NCBI GenBank assembly: GCA_008690995.1
Contig: VRMN01000006.1
Location: 1-64,000, forward strand
DNA length: 64,000 bases
Direction: 5' to 3'
Source: Porphyridium purpureum
Taxonomy: Eukaryota
The position numbers and the translations under genes are program-made. The notes beneath the pieces were generated by a model. That model was not told the DNA's origin, ran no database searches, and saw only the letters and a list, made by a program, of their open reading frames with translations. Positions 34,801 to 56,400 of the stretch are shown in pieces. Each line of letters starts with the position of its first letter. The stretch's first letter is position 1.

Positions 34801-36341
34801 ACGCATGCAAGCTATGAGCGCTCGCACACTGACTTGGAAGCCGGTGGGCGTGCACTGCTGTGCCAGGCCGGGCTTTCACCCGCATGGTGCGGAGCTGCGG
34901 TGAAAAACTGGGCGCTCGCACGGAATCTCACGTGGGTAGGGTCCGGGGTGCCTCGGCGTTCCAGCTCCGATTCGGCCTGCGTTGGAGACGTGCGTTGCCT
35001 TTGTTCGGACAGGGGGTGGTCGTGTTTGACAACAGTCCAGCTGATAAATTCGCGAGCCGCGGACGCACGGCGGCGGCGACGGGTTCTGTGTTACCGAGGC
35101 TAAACGACCCGTGCGACAAGGTCAATGCCTCGGTCGTGGGCCCTGAGGATGAGGCCGGCAGCCGTGCATGCGGCCTATGAATGGAAGGTCCTCGAAGACT
35201 GTTGGTCCCTGCGTAACCTTGGTCTGCGTCTGGTCACGGAGCTCGAGTGGCACACCGCACAACCAGAATTGAGCGAGCGTGTGGAGGCAGAAATGCTCAA
35301 GTCTTGCACGCAGTGCAGAAAACCATGGATGCAAGACGTCGCGGTGACATGTGACCGGTGTTTACAAGGCAGAAAGTCGGATGCAAGGTACGAGTCGGCC
35401 GTGGCATATGGCAAGCGACGATGCTGTTGTCCAAGACTACCAGACGGCACGATTGGTGCTGAAGCAGTGCACGACACGAGCAGAAGTAGGAGGCCCGTGC
35501 AGCGGTGGTCCGCGCAGGAAGATGATGCGATACGAGACAGATATGCCCACGCGGGGGCGCAATGGAAGCTCTTGCGTGGTATACATGCGCGTGTGTTCGA
35601 CGAACGCGCGCGGACTCCTCAAGGCCTGCGCAGCCGCACCGTGGCGCTAGGCCTTGTGCCAGGCAAGAAAGGCACAACGCACGGGAATGCAAGCGCAAAT
35701 GCAAGAGCAGCAGCAGCGCAGGCTGCCGAGGTGGTGCCGCTAGGCACGGCCGTAGGGACAGACGCTGGACGGAGGGTACTCAAGGCCGAACTCACACCCT
35801 TGGTTCAGGTCGGCGCTTTGCAGCTGGACAAGGCTGTCGAGCACCGCGACGTCACGCGGAAAGCAGGCGTGCGGTTTGTGAAGCTGAAAGCAATCATGGC
35901 GGTGAAGAATGCCGAGATGCCGACCGAATACAGGAAGCACAAGTGCAGAATAGTTGCACAAGGGTGCATTCTGCGTGACGGCGATGGTCGGTTCGCGACG
36001 CCCGAGCCATTCAAGCACAAAAAGCCCCCGGGGCTGAGCAGCGTGCGCGCAACGATGAGCAGATGTCTTTTGGCGTATAGTTGGGAGGCCGAAGCCGTGT
36101 TCCTTGATGTTGATAGCGCGTACCTGCACACAAAACTCAGCCGCAACCCGACGTATGGCACGTTACAGACGCTTCTTTCCCTCTTAAACGGGTCCTTGCA
36201 GCAAGCTTTGCTCGAGCGACTGCGCAGAATGAAAAAACCTGTCGTGCACTTGCCACTGGCCCTTTATGAGCTTGCGCGTGCCGGCTCCGATTTTACAGAG
36301 CACGGACGCAGGGAGATGCTGGCGATGGCATGGCGCGAGAG
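31846..36341 (+). mobile_element. LTR retrotransposon A (unusual lineage), degenerate and 3'-truncated inside RT
   Basis: PBS GGTTATGAGCCCAG at 32152-32165 after ..TTCTCG. Gag from 32274 (FAPANAAKQA.DEL, GPAPMEL, CYRCKRRGHIACEC); protease AVVDTDASHTFV..LLLGIDWL; integrase HALTHMPASPSCGIC, VDILD, YERSH; Cys cluster and Myb-like domain; RT N-half (KCRIVAQG, LDVDSAYL, LALYEL). 5' LTR start is tentative. Confidence 0.85.
32914..33200 (+). mobile_element. Solo LTR (TG..CA, 287 bp) inserted in gag of element A
   Basis: TGTCGT..ACGGCA, 4-bp TSD CGCA, internal TATATAAG. Removing it restores the gag frame CLRSAGLSEEEKLDRF. Confidence 0.88.
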
Positions 36342-36518
36342 CGTCGTGAGCGACCTGATGCATGTCTCAGTACAGCGGGTACGCATCAATACAATTGATG
36401 AGTGTACGAAAAGTACATGTATGCTAGAAACCTCCAGAGAAAGTGTCAAATTAGACAGAGAAAACTTTTGGCGCTCGAGCGCGCGGTAGAGAGGAAAGCT
36501 CCAAAGCTCCTGTCAACA
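36342..36518 (+). mobile_element. Internally deleted LTR of the 45799-46410 family, at the point where element A is truncated
   Basis: cgtcgtgagcgacctgatgcatgtctcagtacagc resembles TGTCGCGAGCGCCCTAATGCAGGTCTCAGTACAGC; ends aaagctcctgtcaaca. Confidence 0.65.
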
Positions 36519-38418
36519 AGGTGAGACACAAACAGTCGCGTCCCACGGTATTTTCTTGTGGAAGATTCTGTGCGCGAAGACGAGTTCATCACTTCTGAAC
36601 CCGTTTCCACTTACCCACGAATAATTCCGAGACACACTGCTTATTCCAAAAGAAAACTACTTTTAATCCTTTTCACCCGTAATCTTTTCCTGTGAAAGCC
36701 GCTCCCCGTCGACACGTTCTGCCATGTCCTTAAATCGTCCTCTGTGACGGACACAGACTTGAATGAGCGGATGGAGAGGCGGCGTACACGGCTATTGCGA
36801 ACGTCTCTTGCGCTGATGCAGGCTCATACTTGAAGAGAAAGGAAGCTTCCGCGAAGCTACCTGAGGCGCAGCGACGAGCCCACGGGAGTGGATAACGCCC
36901 AAGCGCTGTCGCTCTCTTTCCTTCTTCGCGCTGGTCGATGGAATGTGCGCGCGTGCCACCTACTTGGCAGTGCGCTCGGCGGAGTGATGGGCGCTCACAC
37001 GCCCACAAGTTTTCTTGCCGCCCCTCTCTGCAAATCTCGACACACAAGAACTAAGCCTTTACTCCACTGCATATCTCTCTTGCTGTCAGAACCACATTCC
37101 TCCAAGCACATCCATGCGACGATCAAGAATTTAATCAGTGATATCGAGACGCCTGAGCTGAGTGTCTTTATTTTTTTTTCGATGCTATTGGTTGACCTGA
37201 AAGTGTCCACACAAGGTCTGCCAGACTTGCTGTTGGCGGCTGCCAGCACAGAAGCATGTCCGAGAAATGAAAGAGCGTGTCAGATCTAAGGACCGTTGTC
37301 TGGAAAGCGCACAAGGTCGAGCAAGCGTTTGAAAATAAAAGTGGATACATTCGTCTTTGTCGAAGGCCATTCCAGCAGATTTCGGTCACTGGGAGGAACT
37401 CTGAGACAGCCGCCTTGCTAAGCTCCCATGCGCACAAGTGCGCACGTTGGAGCACCTTACGTGAAGTCCGCTCCATACAGCGACCTATATCCATAGGATC
37501 GATACTGGCCTCTTGCCTTCAAGAAAGAAAGACTCGCCCTCCGGCGATCTCCACGCCAGCCCTTCTAACATGCTCTACCCTGGCGGCAAACACCAAGCGC
37601 AACTGTGAAATATATCCTCGCGCCTCCGTGCCCCGTGTCCGCCCGAGACTGTGAGATATCCACAGAGGTCGGCTTTATTCCCAAATGCCACACGGCTTGT
37701 CGCTACGTGAAAGCATCAGTGGGCAGTGTTTTTCTACAGCCATTTGCCAACTTGTCACGGCTTTCACGTGCTCGTATACGGCAAGTCTGTCTGCTGCATA
37801 CACATGCGGCCAGCGCACACTTATTTTGGGCATCTTGAGAGCATGAAGCTTCTTCTCACTCCAGCCCTCTTCCACAGCGCTCAGTGTCGTCTCATTGTCT
37901 TCCTCATTTGCATACGCGGTCACTTTCCACGCGACTCTTCGATGAATGTCGCTATTGGGAATGCTCTGTGCTGCGGGACAGTACGCAGGAAAATAAGCTC
38001 CAACTCGGCTGTAGATGTCGCAATCCTCCCCTGTCGACTGCTTAGCCAATCAACGGTGCGCTCAGCTCCGCTGGCGCTCATGTACGCACAAATACCCGTC
38101 CTTGATCCTTCCTCGCAAAGATCTGGATCCGAATAATAGACAATGACGGGCGCGAGGCCCTCGGTCGCAGCGTCGCGTATTCAAGATGCCAGTCCGCGCT
38201 ATCTCGAACGCATCGCGGTATGTTCGTCAAACATTTATCCGCCACCTGGTTTTATCTGTCCGTACACCGCGCCAAAAATCCTGCGGCGAAGGGCTGAATT
38301 AGTTGTTGTCGTTCGAACGAGCCATAATACTTGACCGAGCCTCCTGCGCGATTCGGCCCCGCAGCGGCTGCCGTCGATGTCTAGTTCAGGTCGCTGGACC
38401 AACGAATTCGTACGCTTT

Positions 38419-38672
38419 TGTCATGATACTCTCCACCTTAACTGTACCACCCACCGCACGACTGCTTTGTACCCTCTAGATTCAAACCTCGTTCTAACTG
38501 GCGCCTCCACTTATTACAGGGAATCCACTGTAGGGTAGGGTGGAGTATTCAAGCGCGTCGCCCACGATGCGCTACCTATCTTGTAAACCGGAGGGCCGAT
38601 ATGGCCAGTGGAATTGCGGCTGGGTTGACGGAGGAGGGTAGTGAATTGGCTCTTCGGGACCATATCACGGCA
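38419..38672 (+). mobile_element. Solo LTR of the 32914-33200 family inserted in RT of element D
   Basis: TGTCATGATA..TATCACGGCA; shares ggagggccga..ggccagtgg.attg and ggac.atatcacggca with the other copy. TSD not clean. Confidence 0.75.
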
Positions 38673-39437
38673 TACGTCCAGAAAGCGACCATCAGCCTAA
38701 TTGCCATGTTCCAAGATGACAGCACTAATTGCCGCCCTCACAGACACCAACCCCGGTGGCTTTTCCCACGCAAAGGGGTCGACCACAAGTCCTTGTGCAT
38801 TCTGAACAACAAAGTCCTGCGCAACCAAGCGGTGCTCATGCCGGGAAGCTTCGATGCCGAATTCCGCGTTTTTCATCGCAAAGATGACCTTCAGCTTCAC
38901 GAGCTATATGCCGGGCTTTCTGACCGCGTCCGCTGTCTCTCCATGGCCTTCTTTAGAAGCATGGCGCCAATCTTCCGTAGTGCATTCAGTTCCTTCTCAA
39001 ACGCCAAGCGTCCCGGTCGCGATCGTATTGCTCCCTGGGCGTCGACGACCTCAGTAACCAGTGGCACGCACATTATGCTGTAAAGGTCTGTCGCTGATGC
39101 GCGCAGTCTTTCTCTGCATGCCGCTCCCGACTTCTAACACCGGTGCTCCACGAGGCCTTGCGCCTCCGGACCTGACAAAGTGATCGCCTGCGCTTTTAAC
39201 CGTACACCTTTTGAACTGCGACCTCCGGGAACACTGCCACTTTCTCTCTTGATTCTGGTCCACTTGGGCCCTAGTTGTTCAAAACCTTTGCGCATCGCTG
39301 CACACGCCTGTTCTGACCATGCTCGCCTTCTTGTGCGACCATCGGTCTGGTAGGCTTTTCCATTCCGCCACCCAACGAGCTGCCGCAGGTCTCAAATCGC
39401 TGACCGGTGCAGCCAAGATCTTCGAAACCTTCAGGTT

Positions 39438-39737
39438 CAGAAGATGTCTCCGACCGTTTCAACATTCTTCGTCACAGTCCAGTCGAGTCTGGACACGGTT
39501 CAGAGCAAACTCGTCCCCGAAGTTGCAACGGACGGCAAAGTGGCGGGCACGAGATGGCTGCGGTGCTCTCAGCGGGCCGCGATGGGTATAAAGTCGGCGC
39601 TCACCAATTGTTTTCGTCTGGCGCTGGGCCCACATCACAAGACACAAGCAAGGGAGCTAAAAAGGGCGAAGGACTAGTTCAGGATTAAAGGCAGTCGTTG
39701 TTGCTTGGGAGCACTGAACTTTGTCGCCCATTTACCG
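39438..39737 (+). repeat. 5' LTR of element B (CAG..CCG)
   Basis: Direct repeat of 44048-44347; TATAAA at about 39587. Confidence 0.95.
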
Positions 39738-39792
39738 TGGTATCATCGCCTCGCTGAGTGATCAAGAGTCTTGCGTGGTGGTATAAGCTGAC

Positions 39793-40626
39793 ATGGAGAA
39801 CCTAAGGCAGACATTGGCTCCGAGAGCGGGTGGACCGCTTGAGCCTGAAGTGCGGGTGTCTCGGCTTGACTCGTTTGACGGTACGAGGGATGTGGTAGTC
39901 TTGCAAACGTGGCCCTTCACGGCGCGTGAAGTGATCCTTGTCCCGTTGAGGGATGCCGCGGGCTTGTCGGCTAGGGCGGGTCCAGGAGACGCGCAGGTCT
40001 TCGCTCAGGTAGAAAGAAAGGCAATCCGGGTTGCAGCGACCTATTTTAGAGGCTCTGCCTTGATCTGGTGGATTGGAGTTGTGAGTGCAAATAGCCCTCC
40101 GGACACATGGGATGTCTTTCAACGTGAAGTGGAGCTGCAGTTTGCGCCGCCAAATGCTGTGCGGCAGGCGCGCGATGAGCTCGCGGCGCTGACGCAGACC
40201 GGAGAGGTTTCTGAGTATTGTGACCGCTTCAATCATATTGTTCTGCGTGTGCCAGGGATCACGCAGGATGAAATGCCGGATCGATTCGTCCGTGGTCTTA
40301 AAAGGGCGCATCGCATTGAGGTGCTCAAGGCTTGCGTGGACAATGTCAGCGATGCAATGAGGGTGGCGCTCTCGGTGGAATCCGCTCTTTCGATATACCC
40401 GGGGGTATATGTGGAAACGCGAGGAAGGCAAGTGACGCCCTTCGGGCACGGACAGGGGCCGGTACCAATGGAACTGGGCCTTGCACGTGCTGGACCAGCG
40501 GGGGCGGGGAGAGGGCTTGTTGCTCGAAAGCATGGCTCGAAGTGTTGACTCTGTGGCAAGATAGGACACAGAAAGGCCGAGTGTCCCGAAAAGAATCGTC
40601 GTGGTCCGGGCGCGGGAAACGTCTAA
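39793..40626 (+). pseudogene. gag of element B with a premature TGA inside the CCHC knuckle
   Basis: FDGTRD, ATYFRGSALIWW, FAPPNAVRQARDEL, DRFVRGL, GPVPMELG, then C*LCGKIGHRKAEC and natural stop TAA at 40624-40626. Confidence 0.88.
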
Positions 40627-43600
40627 GCCCCCACTCAGATGGAAATATTCTGACGCTGGGGGCGTCAGACGTGTGCGCTTCGGCACCGAATTTGGAGCAG
40701 AATGAGAGACGTGGCTTGGTGGTTCCTCTGCTTTCATCTCCTTGCGCGCTTCAGGTTCGCTTGGGGGAGGAGTTTGCAACAGCGGAGGCTCTCACAGACA
40801 GTGGTGCGAACGCGTGTTTCATGCGTAAGGTGGTGGCGGACAAGTTGGTCCGTGGTGGTGCGAAATTGGAGAGATGTGAGCCTATTGAAGTTTGCTTGGC
40901 AAATGGCTTCGCTTGTACGGCCTCTAATCTCCTTGTTTGTGCGGTAGCAGCTCTTAGCGTGCCGTTGTTTAAGATCCCTGAGTCACGCTTGACGTGCCAA
41001 TTTATCGTGGCAGAGCGATTGAGCTACGAGGTCATCCTAGGAAAGCCATGGTTGGAGACGGCGTTGAAAGGGTCAGTTGAGGCTATGGCTTCCAAGGTTG
41101 TACCGTGCCATGACCTTATGCACTTGCCAAAGGATCCCGCATGTGGCCCTTGCCAGACGGCCAAGCTCCGACGCACCTCTTCGTGGCGTTCAGGAGACCA
41201 AGCTGTGTCGCGTTCAGTCTTGGAGTTAGATTTGGTTGACGCGGGTGGTGATGAGCGAGGATGGCCTAGACGCGGGGCAAGGTATCTAATGGTTGCTTTG
41301 GACCATCCTGACCGATGGTTGGCAGTCGAGCCATTGATGAGCAAGTCGTCCGACCCTACGGCAGAAGCTTTAGAGCGTATCCTTGCGGGCGAGGCCTGGC
41401 CTTCTGTGATAAAAACGGATGATGGCAGAGAGTTTTCTGGGGCTTTTGCAAGGACTGTGCTCAAACATGGGGCAAGGCACGAGGGCGCCGTTCCTCGTCG
41501 GCCAAATACTCATGCGCCTGTGGAGTCAATGAATCGGACTCTTCTAGGGGCCGTGAGGACGACTTTGGTCGCCGCTGGTTTGCCTCTCCGCTTCTGGGAA
41601 GATGCAGCACTGTCGTTTGCCTTTGCGTGGAACCGCGCGGAGCGCGACGAAGTGTCCCAGAAATCTCCGTACGAGGTCAGGTACAAGAAGAAGTTTGCTC
41701 AAGAAAAATTGCTCCCTTTTGGCTGCGCAATTATGTATCTTGACGAAGAGGCGGCAAAGTTTGAGTCGCGCTCGCGATTGGGAATCTTTATCAAGTACCA
41801 TGAAGAAACTCGAATAGTTGTCGTGGATTCGGAGGAGCTTGCACGTGGAAGAGCTCGCGAAATTGTCACTCGTGATTATGTCCCCAAGAAGATTGACTAC
41901 CCTGCGAGACGCTTAGGATTGCGTCCTCTCGGTGAACAACTGTGGTTGGAAGACTTTGGGCAGGAACACAACAATGGAGATCATGCGGCATATGAGCTTT
42001 GCGGCAAGTGCGGTAAAAGGAAGGTGCTGCAAATTCGCTGCCTGAAATGCTTGGGAAAAAGGGGCAAGAGGCACCGTAAAGATGATTCTTGCACGCTTGG
42101 CGCGTGTCGGTGCACCCCGACAGAGATTTTGGAGCATGCGCGCAAGGTAGCCGCGCGCGCAGAGCACCAGGCGGCGCAGTTCTTGGAGACACAGAAGAGT
42201 GAGCAGGACCGTCTTGCTCGCGCCAAAGCAGCTGCGGAGAAAGGAGAAAGGAGAGCGCAGTGCGCAAAAGCGGGAGCGTCGAGCGTCCAGACTTCGCGCG
42301 AGGATAAGCCCTACAAGCGGTGGGCGTGTGGTACCCAGTCCGCAGACCACTCGGTCTGGTCGAACTGTCAGGCAGCCGTTAAAGCTCGGCTTAGGCGTTA
42401 CCACTGTGGTTGCGCGCTCCGTCGCTCTTGTCCAAAAGGGCTTTGCAAAAGCCAGAGACGTCGAGGTTGATCGCCATCGGCGTTTTCGAACATGGGACCC
42501 GGAACCTGTATCCTTTGAATGTGCCAAAGCCGAGCCAGGAGCTGTTTTCGTGAATGCTCACTTCATTTACACTCTGAGGCATTCGGAGGCGGCGCAGCAA
42601 GTAGAAAAGGTGCGACTGGTGGCGGCGGGAAATAATGTCAGAGACGCCGGGGGCGCAAGATTATCGCGGGACGCACCGTATGCAACGCCGGCAAGCCTGG
42701 CGTCTTTCCGCACTGCCGTTGCTGTCGCTGCCGCGCGTGGATATGAGATCGCCAAGTTGGACATGACGTCTGCGTACTTGCAGGTTAATGTATGAGGCGC
42801 GCCGGATTTCGTCCGATTACCGGAAGAGTTGCCAGAATCGAAGGAAGGGGTCTTCAGGCTGAGACGTGCCCTGTATGGTTTGGAGCGCTCAGGCGCAGAC
42901 TTCATCATTGAAGTGACCAGGAGACTAAATGAGCAGGGCTGGAAGGAAGCAGCGCCGTCTCTGTTTGCTCGCGAAAAGGCAACTCTTGCAGCCTATGTGG
43001 ACGACTTTCTCCTTGCCGGGCCGGCTGACGAACTGAGTGCAGTGGAGCGCTCGCTTCGCCAAATGTTCACTTTTGATGAGGCTTCAGAACGCCTTTCCTG
43101 CGGGGAAATTAATTTTCTGGGTATCAAAGTTCGTCGTGCCCAAGGTTTTATTGAAATCGACCATACAGACTACGCGAAGTGGGTCGGGACGCACACAAGT
43201 TTGTGCGCGGGTATTGACGCAACGACACCGGACGTGGAGGTTCCGGCAGAGGATTACGATAGTGTCCTGTTTGGTGTGGACGCGCCTCGTGCGCAGATAG
43301 GTGCCCTACTCTGGTTGTCAAGGACTACGCGACCTGAGATCAGCCGGGCAGTTGCACGTGCTGCACGCTTCTTGGACAAGTGGAACATTGGTGCGCAGAA
43401 GATCTTGGACCGCTGTCTTTCTTACCTTCGAGGGAAGAAGAGGAGCATTCTGCGCTATCCTTGTGGAAGTGCAGAGGGTGAATCGTGCGCTGACGTCTGT
43501 CTCAAAATCTATTCAGACTCGGACTTTGCTGGTGATTCTGGAGCAACGTGCAAGAGCACTAGCGGTATGGTCGTATTTATCGAGATTCGTCAGAGAAAAT

Positions 43601-44298
43601 ATTTGATTGACTGGAGCTCAAGGGCGCAGAGAGCGGTTTCCACCTCCTCTGCTGAAGCGGAAGTAATCGCGCTGAGTCAGGCCTGCAAAGTAAGTCTGGG
43701 CCTTGCGCCGACCTGCGAGTTGTCAGGCCAAGGTGAAGCTGTAATGCTTGATGTGTATACCGATAGCCAGGCTGCCTTGAAGGCAGTAGAAAAGGGCTAT
43801 TCGGCAAAGTTGGCGCACGCGCGCAGAACGCAACGTGTTTCGATTGCATGGCTCCATGAACTGGCAGAGGATGGCCTCGTGAGATTCAGATGGATTCGGG
43901 GCACTGAGAACCCTGCTGATTTGTTCACGAAGACCTTCAGCCGACCGCAATTCGACATTAAGCTGAAAATTCTGGGTCTGGGGGACGATCGGACAGGTAA
44001 GAAACTTTGTGTCAACGGTGGCGACGAGACTGGCTCTGAAGGGGGCGCAGAAGATGTCTCCGACCGTTTCAACATTCTTCGTCACAGTCCAGTCGAGTCT
44101 GGACACGGTTCAGAGCAAACTCGTCCCCGAAGTTGCAACGGACGGCAAAGTGGCGGGCACGAGATGGCTGCGGTGCTCTCAGCGGGCCGCGACGGGTATA
44201 AAGTCGGCGCTCACCAATTGTTTTCGTCTGGCGCTGGGCCCACATCACAAGACACAAGCAAGGGAGCTAAAAAGGGCGAAGGACTAGTTCAGGATTAA
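40614..44298 (+). pseudogene. pol of element B (PR-IN-RT-RNase H) with one frameshift (about 42200-42470) and one TGA (42793-95)
   Basis: LTDSGANACF, ILGKPWL; HDLMHLPKDPACGPC, LDLVD/KTDDGREF/VESMNR; KVRLVAAG, LDMTSAYLQ, LRRALYGL, AYVDDFLL, TRPEIS; YSDSDFAGD..KSTSG, SSAEAE, NPADLFTK. Confidence 0.9.
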
Positions 44299-44347
44299 AG
44301 GCAGTCGTTGTTGCGTGGGAGCACTGAACTTTGTCGCCCATTTACCG
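44048..44347 (+). repeat. 3' LTR of element B
   Basis: Follows the PPT directly and is followed by TSD AGGTT. Confidence 0.95.
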
Positions 44348-45798
44348 AGGTTTTTCTTTTCTGTCTTTTTCACTTTCATACCAATAACCAAACGGATATC
44401 ACTTGGTTAATATTTCTTCGTGAACTCTGAAAATACAGAGACAGCACGATCGTGTGGCGGTATCGATCCAACCCAGTCTCGACCGTATCATTTCTCGAAC
44501 AGAGTTTTATCGCTGGCTCGCCCGCTCCAAGTGAGGCGTCTGGCGACAGCCTAGTAGCTCGCAGTGAAAACAAAACATGTCATTCGCAGCCCGGACTGCA
44601 GCAAAAGAACGCGCAGGGATGCATTCAAATTTCGGTGAATGCGCTCTTTGATCAGCATGCGTGTTCATCCGCCGCACCATTCCGCGCTTGCGTGCAGTCA
44701 AATGATCCCACAGGGTGACCTCAAAGACTCCTTCAAAGTCAACACCACCATTGGATTCGACCAACCAAGGCCAACCCTTTCCTCACTAGCTTGCTTTCCA
44801 TGCCAGAAGCGCCGACTCTGCTAGTATGTCTGGCTGAGCACGATCATCAACTCATCCTGTCTCCACGCCCCGATGAAAAAAATCCAGCGCGTTCCGTCGA
44901 CGCCCGGCTGAGTTGGATCAACGATGTCCACCAATACCGCGAAGTTACATGCGACAACAGGTTGGTCCCTTCTGCGTGCAGCTCGCTTCCAGGTTATCTT
45001 CTTACCTAGCGCGCACGCACTACACCCTTTTGACTCTGGCATGTGCGTGGCATCAAGACGTCACTCATTCGCTTCTTAATTTTTAGCATCTGAAAGATCG
45101 TTGTCGCCCAAAGCGGATTCTTCGCACAATACAGCGAGACTCTTCCTGATGTCCGTTAAAAACGTTTCCAGCTCCCGATAAACATCAACCGTTTCACGCA
45201 ACTGTATCGTCATTCCCCCGAACGGTCTCGCCCGTAGATATAAGTGAAGTGGCTACATCCGAGTTTGGGTCGGCGGCTGGGTACAAGACCCCGCCGCCGC
45301 GATTGCGGGCTAGGCAAAGAAGAATCAAGACGGACAGAGTTGATGGGAAGGAAGTTTGCTCCATACCAAAACCATTCTTCCAGAGTCACGGGTAGAATCG
45401 ATTCATTCGTTTTCGATACCCCGATCTGTTTGATCGCGTGTGTCACCAGGGGTTGCTTTGCTCTGACGGTCTTTTTTTTTTTGCTTAGACACAGAGCCTC
45501 TGCAGAAAGTTTTCCCTCCAAGGCGCTAGCTTTTTCCATGAGCTCGACACCAGTCAAGCCCGACAATCACGTCATGCTTGCCACTGTATATAATCGCGGT
45601 CGAACTGGCGTTGCGAAAGTCAGCCGTTCCGATCACAATCCGTGCTGTTCCACAAGCCTGAGTGACAGCTCGATTCACGAATCGAAAAGCACGAGTTGCG
45701 CGCTTCAGAACCTGTATACCGGCACGAAGACAAAACGTGTGAGACAAGAAGGTATTCGTCGCGCTAGTCTCTCTAGACACAATGGCAGCGACGCCATC

Positions 45799-46410
45799 TG
45801 TCACAAACGGAGCTTTCTCCTTCACTTTTTCTTCTCTCCTCCTCTACCTCTTCGTCTTTTCTCTCTAGGCTTTTTTATCGTTTAGCTGCCGCTCGCTCTG
45901 TTTTATACCCGCCTTCCGGCGCCGCAATGGCTTGCCCGGCGGGTTAAGCCCTCGGAATAACCCAATCCCGCGGCCCTCAATATAACTCAGCTGTACCACA
46001 CAGTACACCCGATAACTGTACTTTTAGTACACTTAGCCTTGGAGAGGTGCTCCACGGGATCGGCCGAGAAAGATCGATGCTACCGCCGAAAGGGGTGCGG
46101 GTGCGCACGGCGAAACGCGCAACACGTGGGCCACAAGTGTGGCGGACTCTTCGAGGCGCGCAGACGATTCTGCGCCATCTCCCTATCGCTCCCAACAAAC
46201 GACTTACCTTTACCTCACCACGCTAAAGAGTCTCTATCTTCGCTAGTTTTCCGGCCGAGACCCGGCCGCTCCACACAACGTACTTATGCAGCACCGCCGG
46301 TTAAGTGAACACAGGAGTCCGCGGTTCAGCGGGACCTCATCGTTCCCACGTTAGCAACTGTACTTCTGTGTACTCGCTGTACTGAGACCTGCATTAGGGC
46401 GCTCGCGACA
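45799..46410 (-). mobile_element. Solo LTR (TG..CA, 612 bp) inserted in the protease of element D
   Basis: TGTCGCGAGC..GTTTGTGACA, 4-bp TSD CATC on the plus strand. Removal restores VSMDGVAAIVSRETSATNTF. Confidence 0.85.
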
Positions 46411-48214
46411 CATCCATACTCACGTCTCGTTTTATTAGAGACGAAGCCGTTGAGCGGGCCGTGCCCCACTCAACGTGGAGCAGCTTCAGCTCTAGGCCAT
46501 CAGTTTCCGCGTCCGAACAGTCTCGCTGCCATCGTCCCTTCTTCTTACACGCTTGATCGTCATCATTTGCCTTGTCTTGCGCTCTGGGTTTTTTAATTGG
46601 ATGTTTTCTTCTTTCGCGTCTGTTCCGTGGCACCCAACTCCACGGGCACCCGACCGTCCGGCACGCCTCCGAGCGAATGACCTCCGACCCTGCGCTGACC
46701 TGTTTTAAAGGCAGAGTCTACGGCGAGGGCGTTCGTCAGCCCATCTCCATGGGTCGACGGCTGCCGCAGCAAGACTTCAATTCTCAAACGTTCGTTTAAT
46801 ACCCAGACGAATCGATCGAGCTTTACCGCGCTGCGCATGTCGAGGATTTTTGAGCACAGCGAGTCAAATGCAATGATAGAAGCTTCAATGCTCTTGTCTC
46901 CCTGTTGCGTCTCGACCAGCTAGTCTCAGGCACTGTTGGCGAAGTCCATCAGACCGATTCACGCAGTCGGCTCTTCCAAAACTCAAAACACTTCCCGGGC
47001 TTCCGCGCCAGATGTGCGTACCAAGATTTGGCATGTTCTTCTTGGTACACCGCGCCTGTCCGCACAGCCGAATGTCCACCCAGCGCCGTCCAGGTGCGAC
47101 CACTTGCAGCAGCTTCATCCTTCAGCGGCTCGTAGATCCTCTCCTTTGCGTCAATAACCCATGTGGCAATGTCCGTCGCGTCCCGTACCCCAATGAACAC
47201 CTTCATTGGCGCTGGCCCGGCGACGCGTGAGACTGCACTACCTGACAAGTGGGACGGTCCCACGTTCTCTCTCGCTGCTCGCTCTCGCAAGAGTTCTTTT
47301 TCGAGCATCACAATGCGCTCACTAGCACTTCGAAGATCAGCGCCGAGCAACGTGTGCATTCGAGCTACCAGAGCTTCCATGCCGCCTTGCGATAAACCAG
47401 CAGCACCCTGCTTCTACAGCTGCTGAGCCTTCACATACTGCTGGAGCTCGCACAGGCTGCCCCGTTACCGGGCAGCATGCAGGTCAGCTGGCAATATTCG
47501 CCGCTCCGTCAGGTCAACGACTGCACCGGTGACAACCTTTTCGTTTTCAGTACGTCTTGCTTTCCGGCTTTCGTGGTTTGGTGCTCATGCTGGTACGAAT
47601 GAAGTAGGGGGCATATTATCAACTCAAGGGCATCCTCGGTCCCACACGGCTTCAGTCCTTCGGATGCTTTGGGCCTCGCTCCGAAACGGCTAGCCCGCTA
47701 ATCATGGAAACAATACAAAACGCCGCGACAGAAGAAATCAAGTAACAACGAAGACCACTAAGACGCAAAAGAAAAGATAATCAGCAAGTGCACAGCCAAA
47801 GCTCACCCTTGTGAGACCCGCTCGAACTGTGCTCATAGCCCTCGAAAACGTCTGGGAAAGGAAAGTTCCCAGAAGCTCACCAAGGCGCAGGAAAGAGCTC
47901 ACCGAAACGGATAAAGTTCAAGCACTGTCGCTCTCTTTCCCTCTCGCGCCGGCCGCCGGGGATGCGCGCGTACCACCCGCTTGGTGATACGCTAGACTAA
48001 GTGATGAGCGCTCACACGCCGACGCGTTTTCTTGCCTCCCCGCTGAGCAACTCTCAACACACAAGAAGAACGAGTTCTTTACACCACCGCATGCCTCTCT
48101 GGCCTCTTGCCTCGAGAAAGCAAGAACCGCTTACTGGCGATCTGTTCGCCAGCACTTCTTGAACGGTTTACTCTGACGGCAAGTACCAAGCGCTGCGGTC
48201 AATGCTCGTGAACT

Positions 48215-48816
48215 AGTTGTGCCTGTGTCTATGCTGCAAACAGAACTTCGAAATTCAGTGCGTAATGTGGGAGTACCTCGCGAGCGACACGTAGGACACA
48301 TCTTGCAGGACTCCTGGGAAAGCAGATACGATGGCCTACGGGGCGAGCGGCGCAGACAGTGCAGCCGGGTAACATAGCGTTTACCCTAGAGTCCTCTTCG
48401 ATGGATCGTAAGCAAGTTCCTCTTCATCCACGCGAAAGCGTACAGCCAAATGGAGGATAGAACGGAGGATGGAACATCGTCCTTAACACGAGAAGACAAA
48501 CTGTGTAGTACGCGACTCCGAGCGCATCCCATCAGCGGTTCGGTATGGAGTCATCGGTCCGGCAGCGTGTGCGATCCTTTACGGATGTTTCCTCAATTGG
48601 GTGTACTGGGAGGTACGCATGACTTCTGTTGAGGGTCGCGTGGCTGGGTTATTCCGAGAGTTGAAGCCATTCAGGCAATCCGTTGCGAGGCTCCCGGAAG
48701 ATGGATATGAACCCAGAGCCAGCGCGAGCTGAACAAGTAAAAAAGCGAGGAAGAGGAGAACAAAAGACGTAGGATTGGAGAAGAAAAAAGAGAGAGAAGA
48801 AGCTCTGCTTGTGATA
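48215..48816 (+). mobile_element. Diverged third copy of the 45799-46410 LTR family
   Basis: Shares gggtgtactg..ttgaggg.cgcg..tgggttattccgag (48599-48658), the purine-rich tail and the end agctctgcttgtgata. Start approximate. Confidence 0.6.
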
Positions 48817-49195
48817 GGCTCATCGCTTTACACGGCAGCAGCCATGCGGGATCTGCAAGGATCCTCCGATCAAACTTCACACGCGAACAAAGATCCTGAG
48901 AAAAGCACTGATGCAGCGAAAAGGACGGACCAGAAGGGCCAAGCGCTTCTCGAAAAGACCGTATGCGCTTTTGAAGATGAAACGACCATAGTTGATGGCC
49001 ATGAGTATTCGGACCGTGAAGGAAGCGAGACGAATGATAAAGAATAGAAAGCAAGGAACTCGGAGGACGAGCAGCACTGGCCGACCACTGGTGCTGGCTC
49101 GATTAGGGCAGAAAGTATCCGCTAGCCTGAAGACGACGAGAAACAATTGCTGAGATAACACTTGACAGACCATTCGCAAAGATGCGCAGATCAGC

Positions 49196-49820
49196 TTGGA
49201 TGAGACGGCCCAGTCATCAATTTGGCCTGTTAACAAAGCCTGTCAAAAGATCAAAGAATGGCCGTACGATCTGAAGAGGGCCTTGGAAAAGGAATCATCA
49301 GCACACGCGAAAGCCGAGACTTTTGACGTCCAAGAGATCATCGAGCATGACGACATCGAAGATGGCAATGCACAAGTAGTCCAGTTGAGGTTAATTCACC
49401 GCTTGAAAAATCAGGAGCTTGGCCCAATGAGGGCCACCAAAAGCACGCTGAAGCGTACCGGGCTGAACTCTGAGGCCAAGAGAAGGCGGTCAATTGATCC
49501 TGGTGAAGGAAGAGGTACAGCACGAGTGTCCCGGCGTCTTTACAAGTCCTGCGGCTGATCTTAAAGCTCGCTCCGTTGATATCAGGACACATGGATATCC
49601 GATATTGAATATACATACTTGCATGCTGCGCTGCTTGGTCTTGCCGTATACATGAGAGAGTCACAAGGTGTAGCAAAGGTCGGGCCCCGCAAAATGTGCC
49701 CCATTTGTCTGACTATGAAAAGCGCGCTACAGCCTACCGCGATCAAAGGGAGACTGCGGTCAGTACGTGTAAGAGCAGCTGAAGAGACTAGAATGGACGC
49801 CCACCATTGCGGATCGTAAC
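49196..49820 (+). pseudogene. Copia-type reverse transcriptase remnant
   Basis: ALEKE..ETFDV..VVQLRLIHRLKN..KSTL, then SVDI; heavily decayed. Confidence 0.4.
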
Positions 49821-49869
49821 TTCTACGTGAGGAAATCAAGGGGCGATACAAACTCGCTGGCGCTTTTGT

Positions 49870-50274
49870 TAGGTAAGTTCAGTGAGGGTAAAGTTCCCCG
49901 AAGCTCCCAAAGGCGCAGCAAAGAGCTCACAGGAGCGGATAAAGACCAGGCACTGCCACTCTCTTCGCGTCCCACGCCGGCCGATGGGGTTGCGCGCGTA
50001 CCACCCGCTTGGTGGTGGCTAAAGGGAGTGATGGGCGCCCGTACGCCCACGCGTTTTCTTGCCGATGTGTTTTCTTGCCGCCCCGCTTTGCAGCTCTCAA
50101 CGCACAAAGGGGAACTCACTCTTTATTCCACCGCACGCGTCTCTTGCCCTTTGCCTTCGAGCAAGCGAAATCCCTTCCACCGCCGATCTCTTCGCCAGTT
50201 TTATCCAATATGCTCTTATCAATGGTGCTCTACCCTGTCGACGAATACCAAGCGCAACGGTCAATGTTTCCTCG
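49870..50274 (-). repeat. Additional LTR copy of the element D family
   Basis: Aligns by eye with 47841-48208 and 36823-37620 (gcgcgcgtaccacccgcttgg, gttttcttgcc, taccaagcgc); begins CGAGG on the minus strand. Confidence 0.75.
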
Positions 50275-51599
50275 TATCATAATGTAAACCCCGTGGTTCT
50301 AGATCGCGCTCAAACTGCTGGTCGAGAAGGCGGGCGCACGTTCGAGCAGTGTGCGCTACATGCGCACGAGGAAGGCGCAGTATTCATGGAGCTGGCCAAA
50401 GCGGCCTGGAAGATGGCGAGCAGGGGAATGGATATGCGTCGGGCGCGTGTCCAGCAGATCGGCGCAGAAACAAAAGTCTCCAGAGACACGCGTCAGGTCA
50501 ACGCGCTCTTTCCAGTGAGTGTAAAAGGAGCACATGACAGCAGTCGTGTGCACGAGCTAGCGGCAAGAAAAGGCAGGAAACTGTGCGAGTCTAAATCAGT
50601 AAAAGGATCACGGCTTGTCGTCGATTTGGGATCAGGCTTGCGACGCGGGTGCAGGAACTTTGAGTGGGACACAGGCCAGGTGGGCTTCTGTGTTGGTGTG
50701 AGGAGTGTGGTGGCTGCGGGTTCAGTACTCAGCAAAGTTCTGAATCAGCGTTGCCACATCACGGTTTGGATGCTTGTGGGAGCGCGCGGGTCGCTCTCGT
50801 ACGAGGTCGGGTAGCCTGTAACCAGGGCAACGTGGGGGAGGGGTGCCAACTCGGGCGGCTTTGGCGTCCTGTTTGGAGTTGGGTGGCCGCAAAAAATTGC
50901 TCTGAGTCGCTTGAAACTTCTGCTTTGGCTCTGCATGTGTAACCGGCTGGTTCCAACCCAGTCGTTCGATGAGGCTGTTGTTGATTCCTTCAAATTGGTT
51001 CATAATCTAAATAATGTCCGGACGTCGGTCGGATACTTTGGGAGACGTGGCCGGACGTCCAACTGTGGCTAACATCACGGCCGATGTGGTGGCTCTTTAA
51101 GCACGCATACAGCTGATCACGTCCGGCCAGAAACAGATGTGCATAAGTGTTGGCCATACGCGTGAACGCATAGACATCATCATGCAGCGCCTCGAGACGC
51201 AGAGGGACGAGTCCGCAGTTTCGTACCGAGCGGGATCGCGATGCACGGCCAAGTGCCTTCGCCCTTTCGGATGACGGTATCGGCGGGCATCGGTGGTTTG
51301 AGCCTGTTGAAGATGTCTGAAGAGGATTTGCGGCTCATCAAGCCTGAGCAGGAGATGGAGAGGTCAGTGATCCGCGAGATGAAAGTCTCGTGCAATCACT
51401 GTGCTCGTGATCTCAGGTTTGACACCACACGTTTGAACCTGGGTGAAAGCGTGTCGCCAGCTTGTCACGGACGGTCCTCTCAAGCGACCGCCGTCTTTCG
51501 CAGTATAAGTCTCTCCTCTCTCTCTTTTCTCCTTCAACGCCCGTGCTGTCTTTTGTGACCTCTCTTGTTCTATATACGGATTATGCCTACCATCAATTT

Positions 51600-53323
51600 A
51601 ACGGTTCCTTGCACCGACTTCGTTCAGCGCCCTGATGTGCACGCTTTGGACCGTTAAAACCAGTAGACCGATAATCTCACCAACGGTTACGCCGTTTCGC
51701 GATGAAATCGCTGAACCATTACCATCTTTCGGGTCCCGTGACAAGTGTGGACTCTCGATCAACTACCAGGCGCGCTGGTGCTCCAAAAGGTGTAACTCAG
51801 AGCTTGAATATATCTCGCGCATGTTCCGCATACGTCGCGTCCTCCTTGACCGGCTGCACCACGGTTAGCTTTGTACCCGCACACACTATCTGAAGGACCT
51901 TGATCTTTGGACGCTCGGGGAATTCTTCTAGGAACACAAAGCCCGCAAACACCACATGATTCAAGCTTGTTTCAACTTCTGCTGCTTCGCTGAACGGATT
52001 GCGTCGCCCCGCATACCACTTGCACACATGACAATCATCGCATATGCGTCGTAAAGTCACACGGTCTCCCGCAGTCACTTCTTCCGCCGCGCGCCGTAAG
52101 AGACTGTCGATTTTGCGATGGTGAGCGTGTCCGAACCTTTTATGCAAGGTCCTCAGCTCATCTGCTGTGTAACAAATAGCAAGCTCTGCCCGAGATTCTA
52201 CACGATAAGGCCCTACGACAACGATATGCCCTCCGTGTTGTGCAAGTTTGATGGTTCATGTGCCGCACGTGCTCTGCAGCCTCCACGGGTCGGGGAGAAG
52301 TGCCAGATTCTGCCTTTTCATGAACTCAAGGTCCAGAATCATGGGAAGCTCTGCGTCACATGTGCTATCGTCGAATACAACGATTGACGCCTCTAGAAAG
52401 TACTTCCCTGTCTGTTCTGCGATTCTCACGTTTGCGCGCCCGATGCTTGTCAGTCGCTTTCCCCGTGTGACACTTTCTGTATCTAGTGGTTCAAGATTTT
52501 CATTGTTGCCAGTGACCTCGCAGAATGCTCGCCACTGCCTTAGTCCTGCGACGTCCCCAAGCGAGCCCGTGTCGACGACCAGTCCACGGAATTTTGCCTC
52601 GTGGATTGTCAACACCGTGTTAACTCCCCTCGCGGCGTCCATCATCACCGCGAGTACTGATAGCTCCGGACTTGCACTTTCATCGCTCGACGATTCGGAT
52701 CCGGAGGATTCTTCTTTTTCTAAGGCGTGTACAGCCGATGCCGGAGGAAACCCGGCCTTCTTCCGCCTGCAATAAGGTTCAGTATGTCCGTCTCGCTTGC
52801 AGTGCGTGCAGAAGCGCTTGACTTGGCGCGGTCCTCGAGGCGGGTTTTCATTCTTTGCCTTCTCCGGTTCCTTCTCCGGTTCTTTCTCTTGTACGTTTAG
52901 CGCGAGTGCGCGAACCGCACTCGACAGTTCCTCGATGGATAAGACTTTGTCGCTCTCCGAGTAGCGGCCAGGTTTTCCCGCGAACGCGCTCATAGTCAAG
53001 GCACGGATGCGCAATTGCGCCGTCGTATACTCCGAAGTCTCGTCTACGATACAGACTGCTGAACCGAACACAGATGTTTCTGCGAGCGCTGTTGTCATAG
53101 GATTCAGATAAATCTCCGTGGAGATATTGTCGCCCACGTCGTCTCTTATTTCATTGATTTTCCGAACGATCGATTCGAAGCTCTTGAAGCTGCTTGCGGT
53201 GCCGAAGCCGAAAGAAAGCTTCCGGTGAGCTGAAAGGATGACTGCGCGTGGAACGTAGTGTGCTTCAACGCGTGCCACGATTTGGGGGGTACCCCAATCG
53301 TCCGCTCGTGTCCCAGACCCCAA
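51600..53323 (-). mobile_element. Fragment E of a different copia-like element: gag-PR-integrase N-half
   Basis: CTHCKRDGHTEPYC knuckle, LVVDTGSLGDVAG..W protease, standard-length HHCC (LHKRFGH..CDDCHVC), FGAPARLVVDRE. Confidence 0.8.
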
Positions 53324-53490
53324 GCGTTCAAAACCAACGTCTTTTACTCTCTCCCCTCTTCTCTCTCCTCTTCTCCAATCCCCGCCGTGAAGCGGCAGAG
53401 CTTAAATATGCTACAACTAGACCCTAAAGCTAACCGGACCGCCCAGTTATTTTGGGGGCCTATGTACTGTACCTCTTGGCCACAGCATGG

Positions 53491-56400
53491 CTTTGATAAT
53501 GGCGTCTTGGTAAGGCACGCGTATACCAAACATGTACCAATAGTAAACTACTGGTGGCTAGCTGAAGCAAGAGGTCCACAACAAGACGACTTTACTCCTT
53601 AGCACAACCAAGCTCTTCCCTCAAAAGGAGACAGAGCGCCGACTCGTCGGCCGTCTCTCACACTCTAATGATATGCTACTGTGGTTAACCATTACGGTCA
53701 CCAACCAACGGAGAGTTGTCATCATTAAGTATTTGATGACTCCTCATCACGTCATCAGGCAGGCAGAGAGGGATGACTATATTCCACGCACACCCTCATC
53801 ACTTCTGCGCTGGCTGCAAAGGAACGCATCACACTCGCTCGACAAGGTGCCAGCGGGTGTACGGATCATTGTCACACGACATTTTCTCATCATGATGGCT
53901 GTACGCATAGCCGCGCATGCCAGCATCATCGTCGCAGTCGTCGGGCTGCATGAGCATCGCGAAGGCGTTGCCACGGTTGGCGGCGGAGCGAGCATGCGTC
54001 ATACGCTGGGCGACGCCAAGGGATAAGCTTGCACCGTACAGGCCCCACGCGGCTGCATGGCCGCGAAACACGTCGGTGGCAATCGGCTTCGTCAAGCCGT
54101 CAGCGATGTTGTCGCGCGTAGCGACATAGACGAACTTGACGAGTCCGTCCGCTGCTATCTCGTGCAACCATCTCAGCGAGATGCGCTGCATCTTTGGCGC
54201 GTGCAGTAGCCGGTCACTGTGGCCGCGCTTTACCGCGCGCAAAGTCGACTCGTCGCACCGCACAACGATCGGAGGCCAGCGCCTCAAAAGTTCTTCCGCC
54301 AATGTCGCCACTGGGAACACGCTGCCTTGCGCTGCGTCGTGCAGCGCTACCAACTCAGCCTCGGTCGTCGAGGTGCTGACGCGCCGCTGGCGCCGACTGG
54401 TCCAGTCTACAAGGTGTTGGCATCTGCCATTCGATATGAAGAGCACGGCGCCGCTCGTGGATGACGGTGCCGAAAAGTCGACATCAGCCCACGCGTGCAA
54501 CCGAACGTCGCGACTGCCTGCCGCGGGTATGTCGTATTGCAGACAGACGTCCGCATGCTTCTTCAGATACCCGACGATCTCGTCGAGCGCGCGATCCGCG
54601 CTTGGCCCCCACCGGTCGACATAACGCGCCACATGCGCCGTGGCATAAGCGATGTCTGCTCGCGTGGTTCGGCTGAGCCACAGCAGTTGGCCAATCACTG
54701 TTCGCTTGTTTGTCGGGCACGCGCGCCCGCCGGGTCCATTGTCGTCGACCCGCTCGCTGAGTGGCGTGCTGCGCACGCGCAAATTGTCCGCGGTGTGGCC
54801 GTTCGCCACATGGGTGGCGTACACCCCCGAATCCAATATCCATCGGCCGCCGTCGCGATAGATGTGCATGCCGAGATACTTGATAGGGCGCGTACGCGCC
54901 GAGTCTGCAATGTATTCGACCTTCTGGTCGATTCTGAAAACGGTCTTCAGTTGTTTGACCGCCACTCGTACCGCATCCGTATTGCCGAAGAGTGCGCCAT
55001 CGTCTACGTACATGCTCAGCGTGAGCATGCTGCCGTTTGCGCCGCGGCGCCAGTACTGGTTCTTGTCCGCGTTGGATTCTTGCCATCCAAGCCGCCGGGC
55101 ACGCTCGCGAGCGTCGTGGCTGAAGTCATTGCCGCTCCGTTTCATTCCGTACAGAGCCAGCGGTAGCTCCACGACAGGCTCGCTGCACGCGGCTATCTTG
55201 CTGTAGTCAGCTTCGCTGACTAAACCCTTCACGACCGGGACCAGGTCGCGCAGATATCCGAATGTCGGACGGCCGCCCAATGGTGCACTGGGGTAGGCAC
55301 ACGTCACGTCGAAAAAGGCGCCGTCGGCGGATGGTCCATGGAGCATGAGCGCCATGCTCATTGAGGCGCGGATCGCCAGCAAACCTGGCGGGCGATCAAA
55401 AGGGTACGGTTCTTCGCGCGCGCGACGCCCATCGGCGTCCAGCACGACGCATTCTTGCGCGACGATGCGGCACTTCGTCTTGTGGAAGGACGAAGGCATT
55501 TCTGAATTTTTCTTATTGGAGAGGAGCTTCAACTTAACAAATTGCGCGTTCGGAACGCGCGCCGCCACTGCCTTGTCCATCGTGCGGCGGAAAGGCAGAG
55601 CGCCGGTGCTGGTGAGCGCACGAAACTCGGATGCCAATGCATGGCGGCCGGCGGGCGTGGCCATCGCCATCGCTGTGGCCACAACTTCTGCCACCCCCAG
55701 ACCTGCCGCTTCGTCCTCTGTTCCCCCTGTCGCCGCGCTTGTATACGTTGCGTCGCTGCTACTCTCTGCTCGCGTCGCGTCGTTCCGCGTCGCATCGCTC
55801 GCTGCTGCTGCGTGCACTGGAAGCACACCCAGTTCCGCTGCGCGCGCGCGTAAGCTGGCTGGTTTGCGGCCGCGCATGAAGAATGCTGGCCTACCCGCGA
55901 TGGCAAGCCAGTCCTCACCAAAACGGGCAATGCCTTCGGATATGGCAATGTCCTCGGCCGGACTCCACGGCAGCTCAATGCGCCGATACTGTGCTCGCGA
56001 CGCGAGCTTTCCGTGCTCGTCTCGGTTGCACTGGCAGTGCATTTGCCTGCATGCGCCGTCACCAGTGTGACGTCGGCTGGGCGCCGGACCCAAAATGCAT
56101 TTCTCGCATTCGGTGCTCCCACCGACTATTTTCTTGCACTGTGTGCAGAATGCACGGTCCGGTGCATTGTCGCGTGCTCGCGACCATTGATCACCCGTCG
56201 CAATGGCCTCATCTGGAGGCCGCAGTGCCAAACGTCGCAATGGCCACTTGTCGGGAAGTGGCTTCCATTCGCCGACCTTCCTGATCGCAGATGGCCGCAA
56301 GTTGGCAATGGGCAGGGCGAGCAGGTTTATGGGCTGCCGCGGGTCATTCGCCCTCGGTGCCGTGAACCCAACGACGATTGCAGGCAAGCCTTTCGGCTCA

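What the first reader, a model, noticed from the sequence alone, without database searches (positions are those of the whole stretch)
35488..55986. Myb/SANT-like domain fused behind the integrase in three retrotransposons: candidate targeting module
Seen: between IN and RT, A has WSAQEDDAIRDRYAHAGAQWKLL..RTPQGLRSR (35488-35655), C has WSPAEDIAISEGIARFGEDWLAI..FF..RKPASLRAR (55986-55828), and D has WSEQACAAMRKGFEQLGPKWTRI..GRSSKGVRLK (about 39335-39180, in a frame the ORF track misses). All show W-x18-W followed by an R(T/K/S)...(L/V)R helix; B lacks it. Known: this is the Myb/SANT pattern, close in style to single-repeat TRF-like domains. Integrase C-termini carry targeting modules (chromodomains, the Ty5 targeting domain), and Myb-domain proteins bind rDNA terminators and telomeric DNA. 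Inference: a Myb-guided integration system that could explain clustering beside rDNA. I know of no description of this fusion, but have not searched.
Basis: partly seen in the sequence, partly recalled or inferred. Interest (0 to 1): 0.85.

Follow-up and report, generated by a model that had tools for sequence, protein, structure and literature searches.

The report
Myb-armed integrase in algal retrotransposons
Retrotransposons of the red alga Porphyridium carry a small domain, predicted to fold like a Myb DNA-binding domain, behind their integrase; the few insertion sites we could read for one family share a short motif about 19 bases from the element's end, so the domain likely steers where the element inserts.

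Summary
Elements A, C and D carry a single Myb-like domain between integrase and RT; B lacks it. The window is Porphyridium purpureum DNA. PF00249 is the top or second Pfam hit for each isolated domain, at or just under the curated cut-off. The AlphaFold model (pLDDT 85) is a three-helix bundle matching TRF and c-Myb folds. The domain occurs in about ten divergent Porphyridium families and in none of the more distant relatives found. It is better conserved than the linkers beside it.

The rDNA idea is not supported: family C lies on 12 scaffolds, and its other flanks are not rDNA.

New here: family-C 3' flanks carry GTAC(A/G)G 19 nt past the LTR end in 3 of 3 outside insertions, and at 18 nt in the window copy (ambiguous). 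Myb-less B shows it in 0 of 3. Chance is about 1e-4, but the motif was found post hoc and the sample is tiny. LTRs end 5'-C...G-3', not TG...CA.

Best reading: a Copia-order element whose integrase likely uses its own Myb domain to read target DNA at a fixed distance, as R2 does. Binding is untested (confidence 0.5).

The parts
55827..55967 (-). Myb-like domain of element C
   Evidence: PF00249 E 7.7e-5; AF2 pLDDT 84.8, three helices; TRF2 Myb Z 6.9, rmsd 2.0 A, 51 aligned
35506..35652 (+). Myb-like domain of element A
39182..39319 (-). Myb-like domain of element D (degenerate copy; intact relative P0006)
56028..56147 (-). Cys/His-rich putative zinc module (CxxC..CxxC..H..C..CxC) of C, just upstream of the Myb
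   Evidence: sequence; pattern in 23 of 55 tree rows, mostly without Myb
35305..35436 (+). Cys-rich module of A (variant spacing)
42000..42113 (+). Cys/His-rich module of B; no Myb follows
53491..59419 (-). Element C, full length. LTRs 59419-59124 and 53788-53491 (282 of 296 identical), termini CG...AG; PBS from 59123; gag 58898-57705 and pol 57701-53832 separated by a stop in this copy
56250..56933 (-). C integrase core (56933-56547) and SH3-like region (56447-56250)
   Evidence: rve E 1.4e-7; region mapping
53898..55694 (-). C RT and RNase H, Copia-type
   Evidence: RVT_2 E 1.2e-4
53467..53472 (-). GTACAG in the 3' flank of C, 18 nt past the LTR end (candidate target motif; this copy is ambiguous)
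39438..44347 (+). Element B, Myb-less control. LTRs 39438-39737 and 44048-44347 (298 of 300 identical), termini CA...CG, perfect 5-bp TSD; inserted into the integrase region of D
37700..47840 (-). Element D, degenerate, split by B (PBS at 47840; 3' limit approximate)
32152..36400 (+). Element A from its PBS to the truncated RT (frameshifted; 3' limit approximate)
22890..28608 (+). Single rDNA unit (SSU, 5.8S, LSU); context only, no element inside

Best explanation
These are Copia-order LTR retrotransposons of Porphyridium purpureum whose polyprotein carries, behind the integrase, a single domain predicted to fold as a Myb helix-turn-helix, which likely stays on the integrase and likely binds a short target-DNA motif (GTAC[A/G]G in family C) so that integration would occur about 19 bases away. 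Shown: domain order, the conserved domain in about ten families, C...G LTR ends, and the motif at a fixed offset in the few family-C flanks read. Predicted: the fold. Inferred: that the protease leaves the Myb on the integrase, that it binds DNA, and that it, not the core, SH3 or zinc module, reads the motif. Families with a different helix 3 would read other motifs; families without the domain (B) would insert with no such motif.
For: Fold and profile. Conservation: against five relatives (one of them, P0003, without a recognisable Myb) C's Myb is 29-50% identical in the four that have it, while the linker behind it is 5-18% and the stretch before the zinc module 12-24%. The domain is basic in A, C, D and most main-clade families (pI 9.4-11.9; helix-3 region net +2 to +4), as expected for DNA-binding Myb rather than acidic SANT (the rule is recalled). 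Flanks: the three loose-end rows at C's 3' LTR end read GTACAG, GTACAG and GTACGG at the same 19-nt offset, with otherwise unlike sequence. Random window 30-mers do this in 409 of 3,000,000 trials. B keeps the zinc module, lacks Myb, and has the motif in 0 of 3 3' flanks. In P0178 the Myb lies upstream of an RRSxR motif typical of Copia integrase tails (motif role recalled). Precedent: R2Bm ZnF and Myb read a motif at -34 to -22, with a required spacing to the cut site (PMC10499050, passages).
Against: Only three outside flanks, and the motif was found post hoc. Two of the three rows are mixtures (X1: 2 contigs, agreement 0.65; X22: 26 reads, 0.74), and 68 loose-end rows were not shown. The window copy is at 18 nt, has no clean TSD, and the joined empty form has 21 letters where this flank has 17, so its offset may be a later accident. 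B differs from C along the whole integrase (27% identity), so it does not isolate the Myb. No flanks for any second Myb-bearing family. The domain was lost or decayed in several lineages (B family, P0024, P0003, P0023, P0177) and is acidic in P0035/P0174 and P0069/P0178 (pI 4.5-4.8), so it is dispensable and may not bind DNA in all. No Foldseek row reaches E 0.001 and the best Z is 6.9 (small domain).
Confidence: 0.5

Rival explanations
1. The domain tethers the integration complex to chromatin or a host protein (SANT-like, chromodomain-like), giving nested clusters such as this one; the flank motif is chance or marks a host factor's site.
For: SANT domains rank among the fold matches. The domain is acidic in the two chimeric families. 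Insertions are nested: B in D, C in another element. Chromodomains at the integrase C-terminus occur in Copia CoDi-A (PMC2774666, passages).
Against: C, A, D and most main-clade domains are basic. Myb-less B nests in the same cluster. A fixed 19-nt offset is unlikely by chance.
Confidence: 0.2
2. The motif is real but is read by another part of the integrase (core, SH3-like region or zinc module); the Myb binds DNA non-specifically or binds the element's own cDNA ends or LTR, helping intasome assembly or transcription.
For: C has both zinc module and Myb, and the zinc modules of B and C differ in sequence. C's LTR holds two GTACA sites. The unusual C...G ends show that end recognition is altered in this clade.
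Against: B has C...G ends and the zinc module without Myb and has inserted recently (LTRs 298 of 300 identical), so the Myb is not needed for end handling. A motif 19-25 nt from the junction lies beyond the usual target footprint of integrase cores (recalled).
Confidence: 0.2
3. The domain is a captured host fragment with no present role, and the flank motif is a small-sample coincidence.
For: Repeated loss and decay. Pfam scores at or under the cut-off. Three flanks only.
Against: Both Trp residues and the helix-3 Arg are kept across families only about 40-50% identical in RT, while the linkers are barely alignable. It is kept in families with a quite different gag-protease-integrase (P0174, P0178).
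Confidence: 0.07
4. The Myb directs insertion beside rDNA or telomeres, like Reb1/TTF1 or TRF proteins.
For: The cluster starts about 3.5 kb past the LSU end. Tbf1 is the top single-domain PDB sequence hit (E 2.2e-5), with Trf1 and Reb1 lower.
Against: Family C is on 12 scaffolds. Its three outside flanks are not in this rDNA unit. C lies 25-31 kb from the rDNA. B clusters here without Myb.
Confidence: 0.05

Closest known systems
R2 and R4/Dong non-LTR retrotransposons
   Same: An element-encoded Myb domain, with zinc fingers in R2, reads target DNA at a set distance from the insertion site (PMC10499050, passages). A diverged Myb/SANT domain is reported in R4/Dong (PMC7998251, passages).
   Different: Those use an endonuclease and target-primed reverse transcription, with the Myb at the N-terminus. 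Here it trails a DDE integrase in an LTR element, and its binding is untested.
Chromoviruses and CoDi-A Copia elements
   Same: A small host-type domain at the integrase C-terminus, proposed or shown to guide integration (PMC2774666, passages; PMC12477314, passages).
   Different: A chromodomain reads histone marks; this is a Myb fold, basic in most families, with a DNA motif in the flanks.
Ty1/Copia superfamily; PyRE1G1 and GalEa-like elements of red algae
   Same: Integrase before RT; RT matches RVT_2. Red-algal Copia lineages PyRE1G1 and GalEa are named in PMC5029228 (one passage) and PMC3587641 (passages).
   Different: Gag and protease match Ty3-type profiles; LTR ends are C...G, whereas the GalEa-like CoRex1/2 have TG...CA. 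I did not have the PyRE1G1 sequence; its 'gypsy-like integrase' is recalled, so kinship is untested.
Troyka LTR retrotransposons
   Same: Non-canonical termini that begin with C and end with G (5'-CG...CG-3'; PMC12440569, abstract, introduction and start of methods).
   Different: Troyka is an animal lineage near Gypsy and retroviruses with 3-bp TSDs; these have Copia order, Copia-type RT and a 5-bp TSD in B.
Single-repeat Myb proteins TRF1/TRF2/Tbf1 and c-Myb repeats
   Same: Three-helix fold; TM 0.6-0.7, Z 6.5-6.9; W-x18-W.
   Different: The third aromatic residue is replaced by a small residue; no telobox motif (recalled); 15-28% identity.

Membership tests
Myb/SANT domain (PF00249) | Regularly spaced Trp residues in helices 1 and 2 | tested here: met
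   W-x18-W in A, C, D and in most rows of alignment A4
Myb/SANT domain (PF00249) | Three-helix bundle with helix-turn-helix | tested here: met
   Predicted: H9-22, H25-30, H42-52, pLDDT 84.8; top matches Myb/TRF, Z 6.9, rmsd 2.0, 51 aligned. An earlier 8-sequence model was poor, pLDDT 59.
Myb/SANT domain (PF00249) | Profile score at the curated cut-off (24.4 bits) | tested here: inconclusive
   C 23.2, D 16.8, A 13.5 bits; P0006 24.3; best isolated member E 6.1e-7, bits not shown
Myb/SANT domain (PF00249) | Sequence-specific DNA binding through helix 3 | not testable with these tools
   Only indirect: basic charge and the flank motif
Telobox (TRF-type) Myb | Telobox consensus in helix 3 (recalled) | tested here: not met
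   Helix-3 regions lack it; TRF and c-Myb structures tie within 1 Z
Ty1/Copia superfamily | Order protease-integrase-RT-RNase H | tested here: met
Ty1/Copia superfamily | Copia-type RT (RVT_2) | tested here: met
   B 32.0 and P0023 33.8 bits against cut-off 31.6; C 22.2; no RVT_1 hit in the Porphyridium proteins scanned. The tree used canonical Copia as outgroup and cannot show nesting.
Ty1/Copia superfamily | LTRs, PBS and 5-bp TSD | tested here: met
   B: perfect 5-bp TSD; C: LTRs and PBS, TSD unclear
Canonical Copia elements | TG...CA termini (usual, not strictly defining) | tested here: not met
   C: CG...AG; B: CA...CG; A and D 5' LTRs end in G before the PBS
Canonical Copia elements | Copia-type gag and protease (usual, not strictly defining) | tested here: not met
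   Retrotrans_gag, Ty3_capsid and gag-asp_proteas hits instead
Chromovirus / CoDi-A | Chromodomain at the integrase C-terminus | tested here: not met
   No chromodomain hit
R2 / R4 site-specific elements | Non-LTR, restriction-like endonuclease | tested here: not met
   LTRs and a DDE integrase; a functional analogy only
Troyka | CG...CG termini, 3-bp TSD, Gypsy-like order | tested here: not met
   5-bp TSD in B, Copia order
PyRE1G1 clade | RT groups with PyRE1G1 | not tested

The most novel reading that the evidence does not exclude
An LTR retrotransposon clade with C...G ends whose integrase carries its own sequence-reading Myb domain and places the cDNA, in one orientation, 19 bp from a family-specific hexamer: R2-style self-encoded targeting on a DDE integrase, with about ten natural specificity variants and natural deletion controls in one small genome.
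Probability: 0.4. Interest if true: 0.88.

Novelty: new variant of a known kind. Interest (0 to 1): 0.7.

Why it matters
Well-studied LTR elements reach their targets mostly through host proteins or chromatin marks (Ty1, Ty3, Ty5, Tf1: recalled; chromodomains). A DDE integrase that finds a DNA motif through its own small domain at a fixed spacing would be a different route. It would show how a fused DNA reader can impose site and orientation on an integrase, a long-standing aim in vector design. The system is directly testable: one genome holds Myb-plus families with different recognition helices, Myb-minus families, and chimeras that join the Myb and RT to a canonical Copia integrase. The C...G ends also mean that tools expecting TG...CA would miss these elements.

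Tried and rejected
No whole genome was held, so junctions could not be collected genome-wide. A scan of metagenome contigs for C's LTR end gave 119 loci, none like the window by blastn or tblastn. Viral contigs: 132 pattern matches, no relative. The first AlphaFold model (8 sequences, pLDDT 59) gave no significant Foldseek hit and no VIA-wide match at Z>=2; the second model was not run in the wide library. The ESM Atlas gave only sub-0.9 leads: Myb-labelled clusters for the C region, nothing named for the zinc module. A search for the Myb's donor found one non-element protein, a fungal Myb at E 0.003, among 7996 scored candidates; the donor is unknown. A TG...CA reading of C's LTR was considered and dropped, since loose ends fall at 59124 and 53788. 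P0003 was first read as a decayed Myb and included in alignment A3, but it was the 1 of 8 without a Pfam hit and scored under 4 bits with a profile not seeded by it; it is counted as Myb-less. The 3' ends of A and D could not be fixed, so their flanks were not used. A first tree run timed out. Four look-ups in earlier findings returned nothing. No complex prediction was run.
Full report
Setting. The window is eukaryotic: a single rDNA unit at 22890-28608, then a nested cluster of retrotransposons. Element C's pol is 98% identical to a Porphyridium purpureum protein. That protein's cluster has 16 members; the 15 listed lie on 12 scaffolds, and one may be this copy. Four related elements are in the window: A (+, truncated), D (-, degenerate, split by B), B (+, LTRs 298 of 300 identical) and C (-, LTRs 282 of 296). 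All four copies here are broken by stops or frameshifts. Their order is gag, protease, integrase, RT, RNase H. Gag and protease match Ty3-type profiles and RT matches the Copia profile RVT_2.

The observation. The three peptides are at 35506-35652 (A), 55967-55827 (C) and 39319-39182 (D), each W-x18-W, each between the integrase SH3-like region and RT. Isolated, they hit PF00249 at E 7.7e-5 (C), 0.0074 (D) and 0.08 (A), all below the curated cut-off; B's region hits nothing. In an 8-member alignment 7 hit PF00249, best E 6.1e-7. The profile's best single-domain PDB hit is Tbf1, E 2.2e-5, followed by c-Myb, Trf1 and Reb1; five ankyrin/DARPin rows among the 33 are spurious. With 16 aligned sequences AlphaFold gives C's domain pLDDT 84.8 and three helices. 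Foldseek's top rows are Myb, SANT and TRF domains (probability up to 0.97, TM 0.6-0.7, none at E 0.001). VIA-align puts TRF2, TRF1 and c-Myb R1 at Z 6.5-6.9. An earlier model from 8 sequences was poor and gave nothing significant. The domain is Myb-like; it is not a telobox by sequence (motif recalled).

Spread. A profile of integrase to RNase H was run against 1.84 billion representatives and the best 150 were listed. Among 155 proteins scanned with a local Myb profile, 12 scored over 20 bits; 10 of these were seeds, and reversed sequences reached 3.6 bits at most. The first-round profile, seeded only with A, C, D and P0002-P0006, found P0026, P0032 and P0025 at 29-89 bits and P0041, P0056, P0035 and P0069 at 7-14 bits. 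Pfam independently gave P0035 and P0026 PF00249 at E about 0.007. Every Myb-positive protein whose source I looked up is P. purpureum; P0032 was not looked up, and P0054 is the window's own A. In a FastTree RT-RNase H tree of 55 sequences, chosen from 89 usable ones, 11 rows are Myb-positive. They fall in three Porphyridium subgroups, with losses in B's family, P0024, P0003 and P0023. The root and the deeper joins are weak, so one gain with losses and spread by recombination both remain open. The Cys/His-rich module upstream of the Myb is older: 23 of 55 rows have it, mostly unnamed metagenome or transcriptome proteins without Myb. P0174 and P0178 join a canonical Copia gag-protease-integrase to the Myb and this clade's RT. 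C's Myb is 29-50% identical to the four Myb-bearing relatives compared, against 5-18% for the linker behind it, which points to selection.

LTR ends. Loose ends of contigs and reads fix C's LTR at 59124 and 53788, giving 5'-CG...AG-3'. B's ends are 5'-CA...CG-3' with a perfect 5-bp TSD, confirmed by two other insertions at 39737. The 5' LTRs of A and D also end in G directly before the PBS. Among seven plant non-canonical types the first T was invariable (10.1101/137141, passages). CG...CG ends are known from Troyka, an unrelated lineage (PMC12440569, first of five parts).

Target sites. Laying four public runs on C gave loose-end rows at the 3' LTR end for three runs. Read in the element's direction, they carry GTACAG (X4, one contig), GTACAG (X22, 26 RNA reads, agreement 0.74) and GTACGG (X1, two contigs, 0.65), each starting 19 nt past the LTR, with unlike sequence in between. 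The table withheld 68 rows, and none was shown for X8 at this place. The window copy has GTACAG at 18 nt. Random window 30-mers give the three-flank pattern, for any hexamer at any offset, in 409 of 3,000,000 trials; three of four sharing a hexamer within 1 nt occurs in 42 of 400,000. The two 5' flanks seen lack the motif. The same four runs laid on B's LTR gave three distinct 3' flanks, none with it. Against this: the sample is tiny and post hoc; the window copy lacks a clean TSD and differs locally from the joined empty form (17 against 21 letters), so I rest the case on the three outside rows; and B differs from C throughout the integrase. None of the three flanks occurs in this window or its rDNA.

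Mechanism. Most likely (0.5) the Myb stays on the integrase tail and reads target DNA, fixing the insertion about 19 bp away. It is basic in A, C, D and most main-clade families. B, with the zinc module and C...G ends but no Myb, shows no motif. R2Bm does the like with ZnF and Myb at -34 to -22 and a required spacing (PMC10499050, passages). Rivals: chromatin or protein tethering (0.2), favoured by the acidic variants in the chimeric families; another integrase part reads the motif while the Myb binds the element's own DNA (0.2); no role (0.07); rDNA or telomere targeting (0.05). RNA reads cover C thinly on both strands, the Myb region included, which shows little.

Novelty. Ten full-text searches listed no paper on a Myb domain in an LTR element's integrase or on this clade. 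Searching three papers on LTR or Ginger extra domains for 'Myb' and 'SANT' found none in their main text (PMC3248453, PMC9289625, PMC2836005). In PMC12477314 I saw one of three 'Myb' passages, about host genes. The library lacks most subscription papers, including those on PyRE1G1, and I saw no Repbase or GyDB entries and no supplements, any of which could mention the domain. I file this as a new variant of a known kind: a Copia-order element with an integrase-tail accessory domain. The domain is real; its targeting role has first, thin support.

Noticed in passing
window 39438-44347 and 53491-59419: LTR termini are C...G (B: CA...CG; C: CG...AG), not TG...CA; A and D 5' LTRs also end in G before the PBS.
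   Followed up: yes
window 56028-56147, 42000-42113, 35305-35436: A Cys/His-rich module behind the integrase SH3-like region with no Pfam family; found in 23 of 55 relatives, many unnamed and Myb-less. Fold and role unknown.
   Followed up: partly
proteins P0174, P0178 (P. purpureum): Chimeric elements: canonical Copia gag-protease-integrase, then an acidic Myb, then the RT of this clade.
   Followed up: partly
window 32152, 59123, 47840 against 39738: A, C and D share a PBS of the internal (half-tRNA) initiator type, B has a 3'-end type (types recalled), within one clade.
   Followed up: no
window 51800-53401 (-) and 53440-53473 joined to 59419: C is inserted in another, canonical-looking Copia remnant; the joined form without C is seen in all four runs laid, including 63 RNA reads.
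   Followed up: partly
window 7-15801 (-): A 5265-codon open frame encoding TRRAP/Tra1 (Tra1_central, Tra1_ring, FAT, kinase, FATC).
   Followed up: yes
window 22890-28608: One rDNA unit standing alone between ordinary genes and the retrotransposon cluster, with no tandem copy in the window.
   Followed up: no
window 61119-62563: Tc1/mariner element with 43-bp inverted repeats and an open 335-codon DDE_3 transposase frame.
   Followed up: no
window 45798-46013 and 48596-48817; 29704-29748 and 63954-64000: Two pairs of inverted, diverged repeats (71% and 91%) of unknown origin.
   Followed up: no
window 36837-37083, 47856-48152, 49890-50198: Three old LTR-like copies of D's family (70-75% alike); one is followed by a PBS remnant.
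   Followed up: partly
protein P0045 (unnamed): A relative of this clade with an AAA_28 domain behind RNase H.
   Followed up: no
window 16403-18100 (+): Gene for a three-RRM protein.
   Followed up: no
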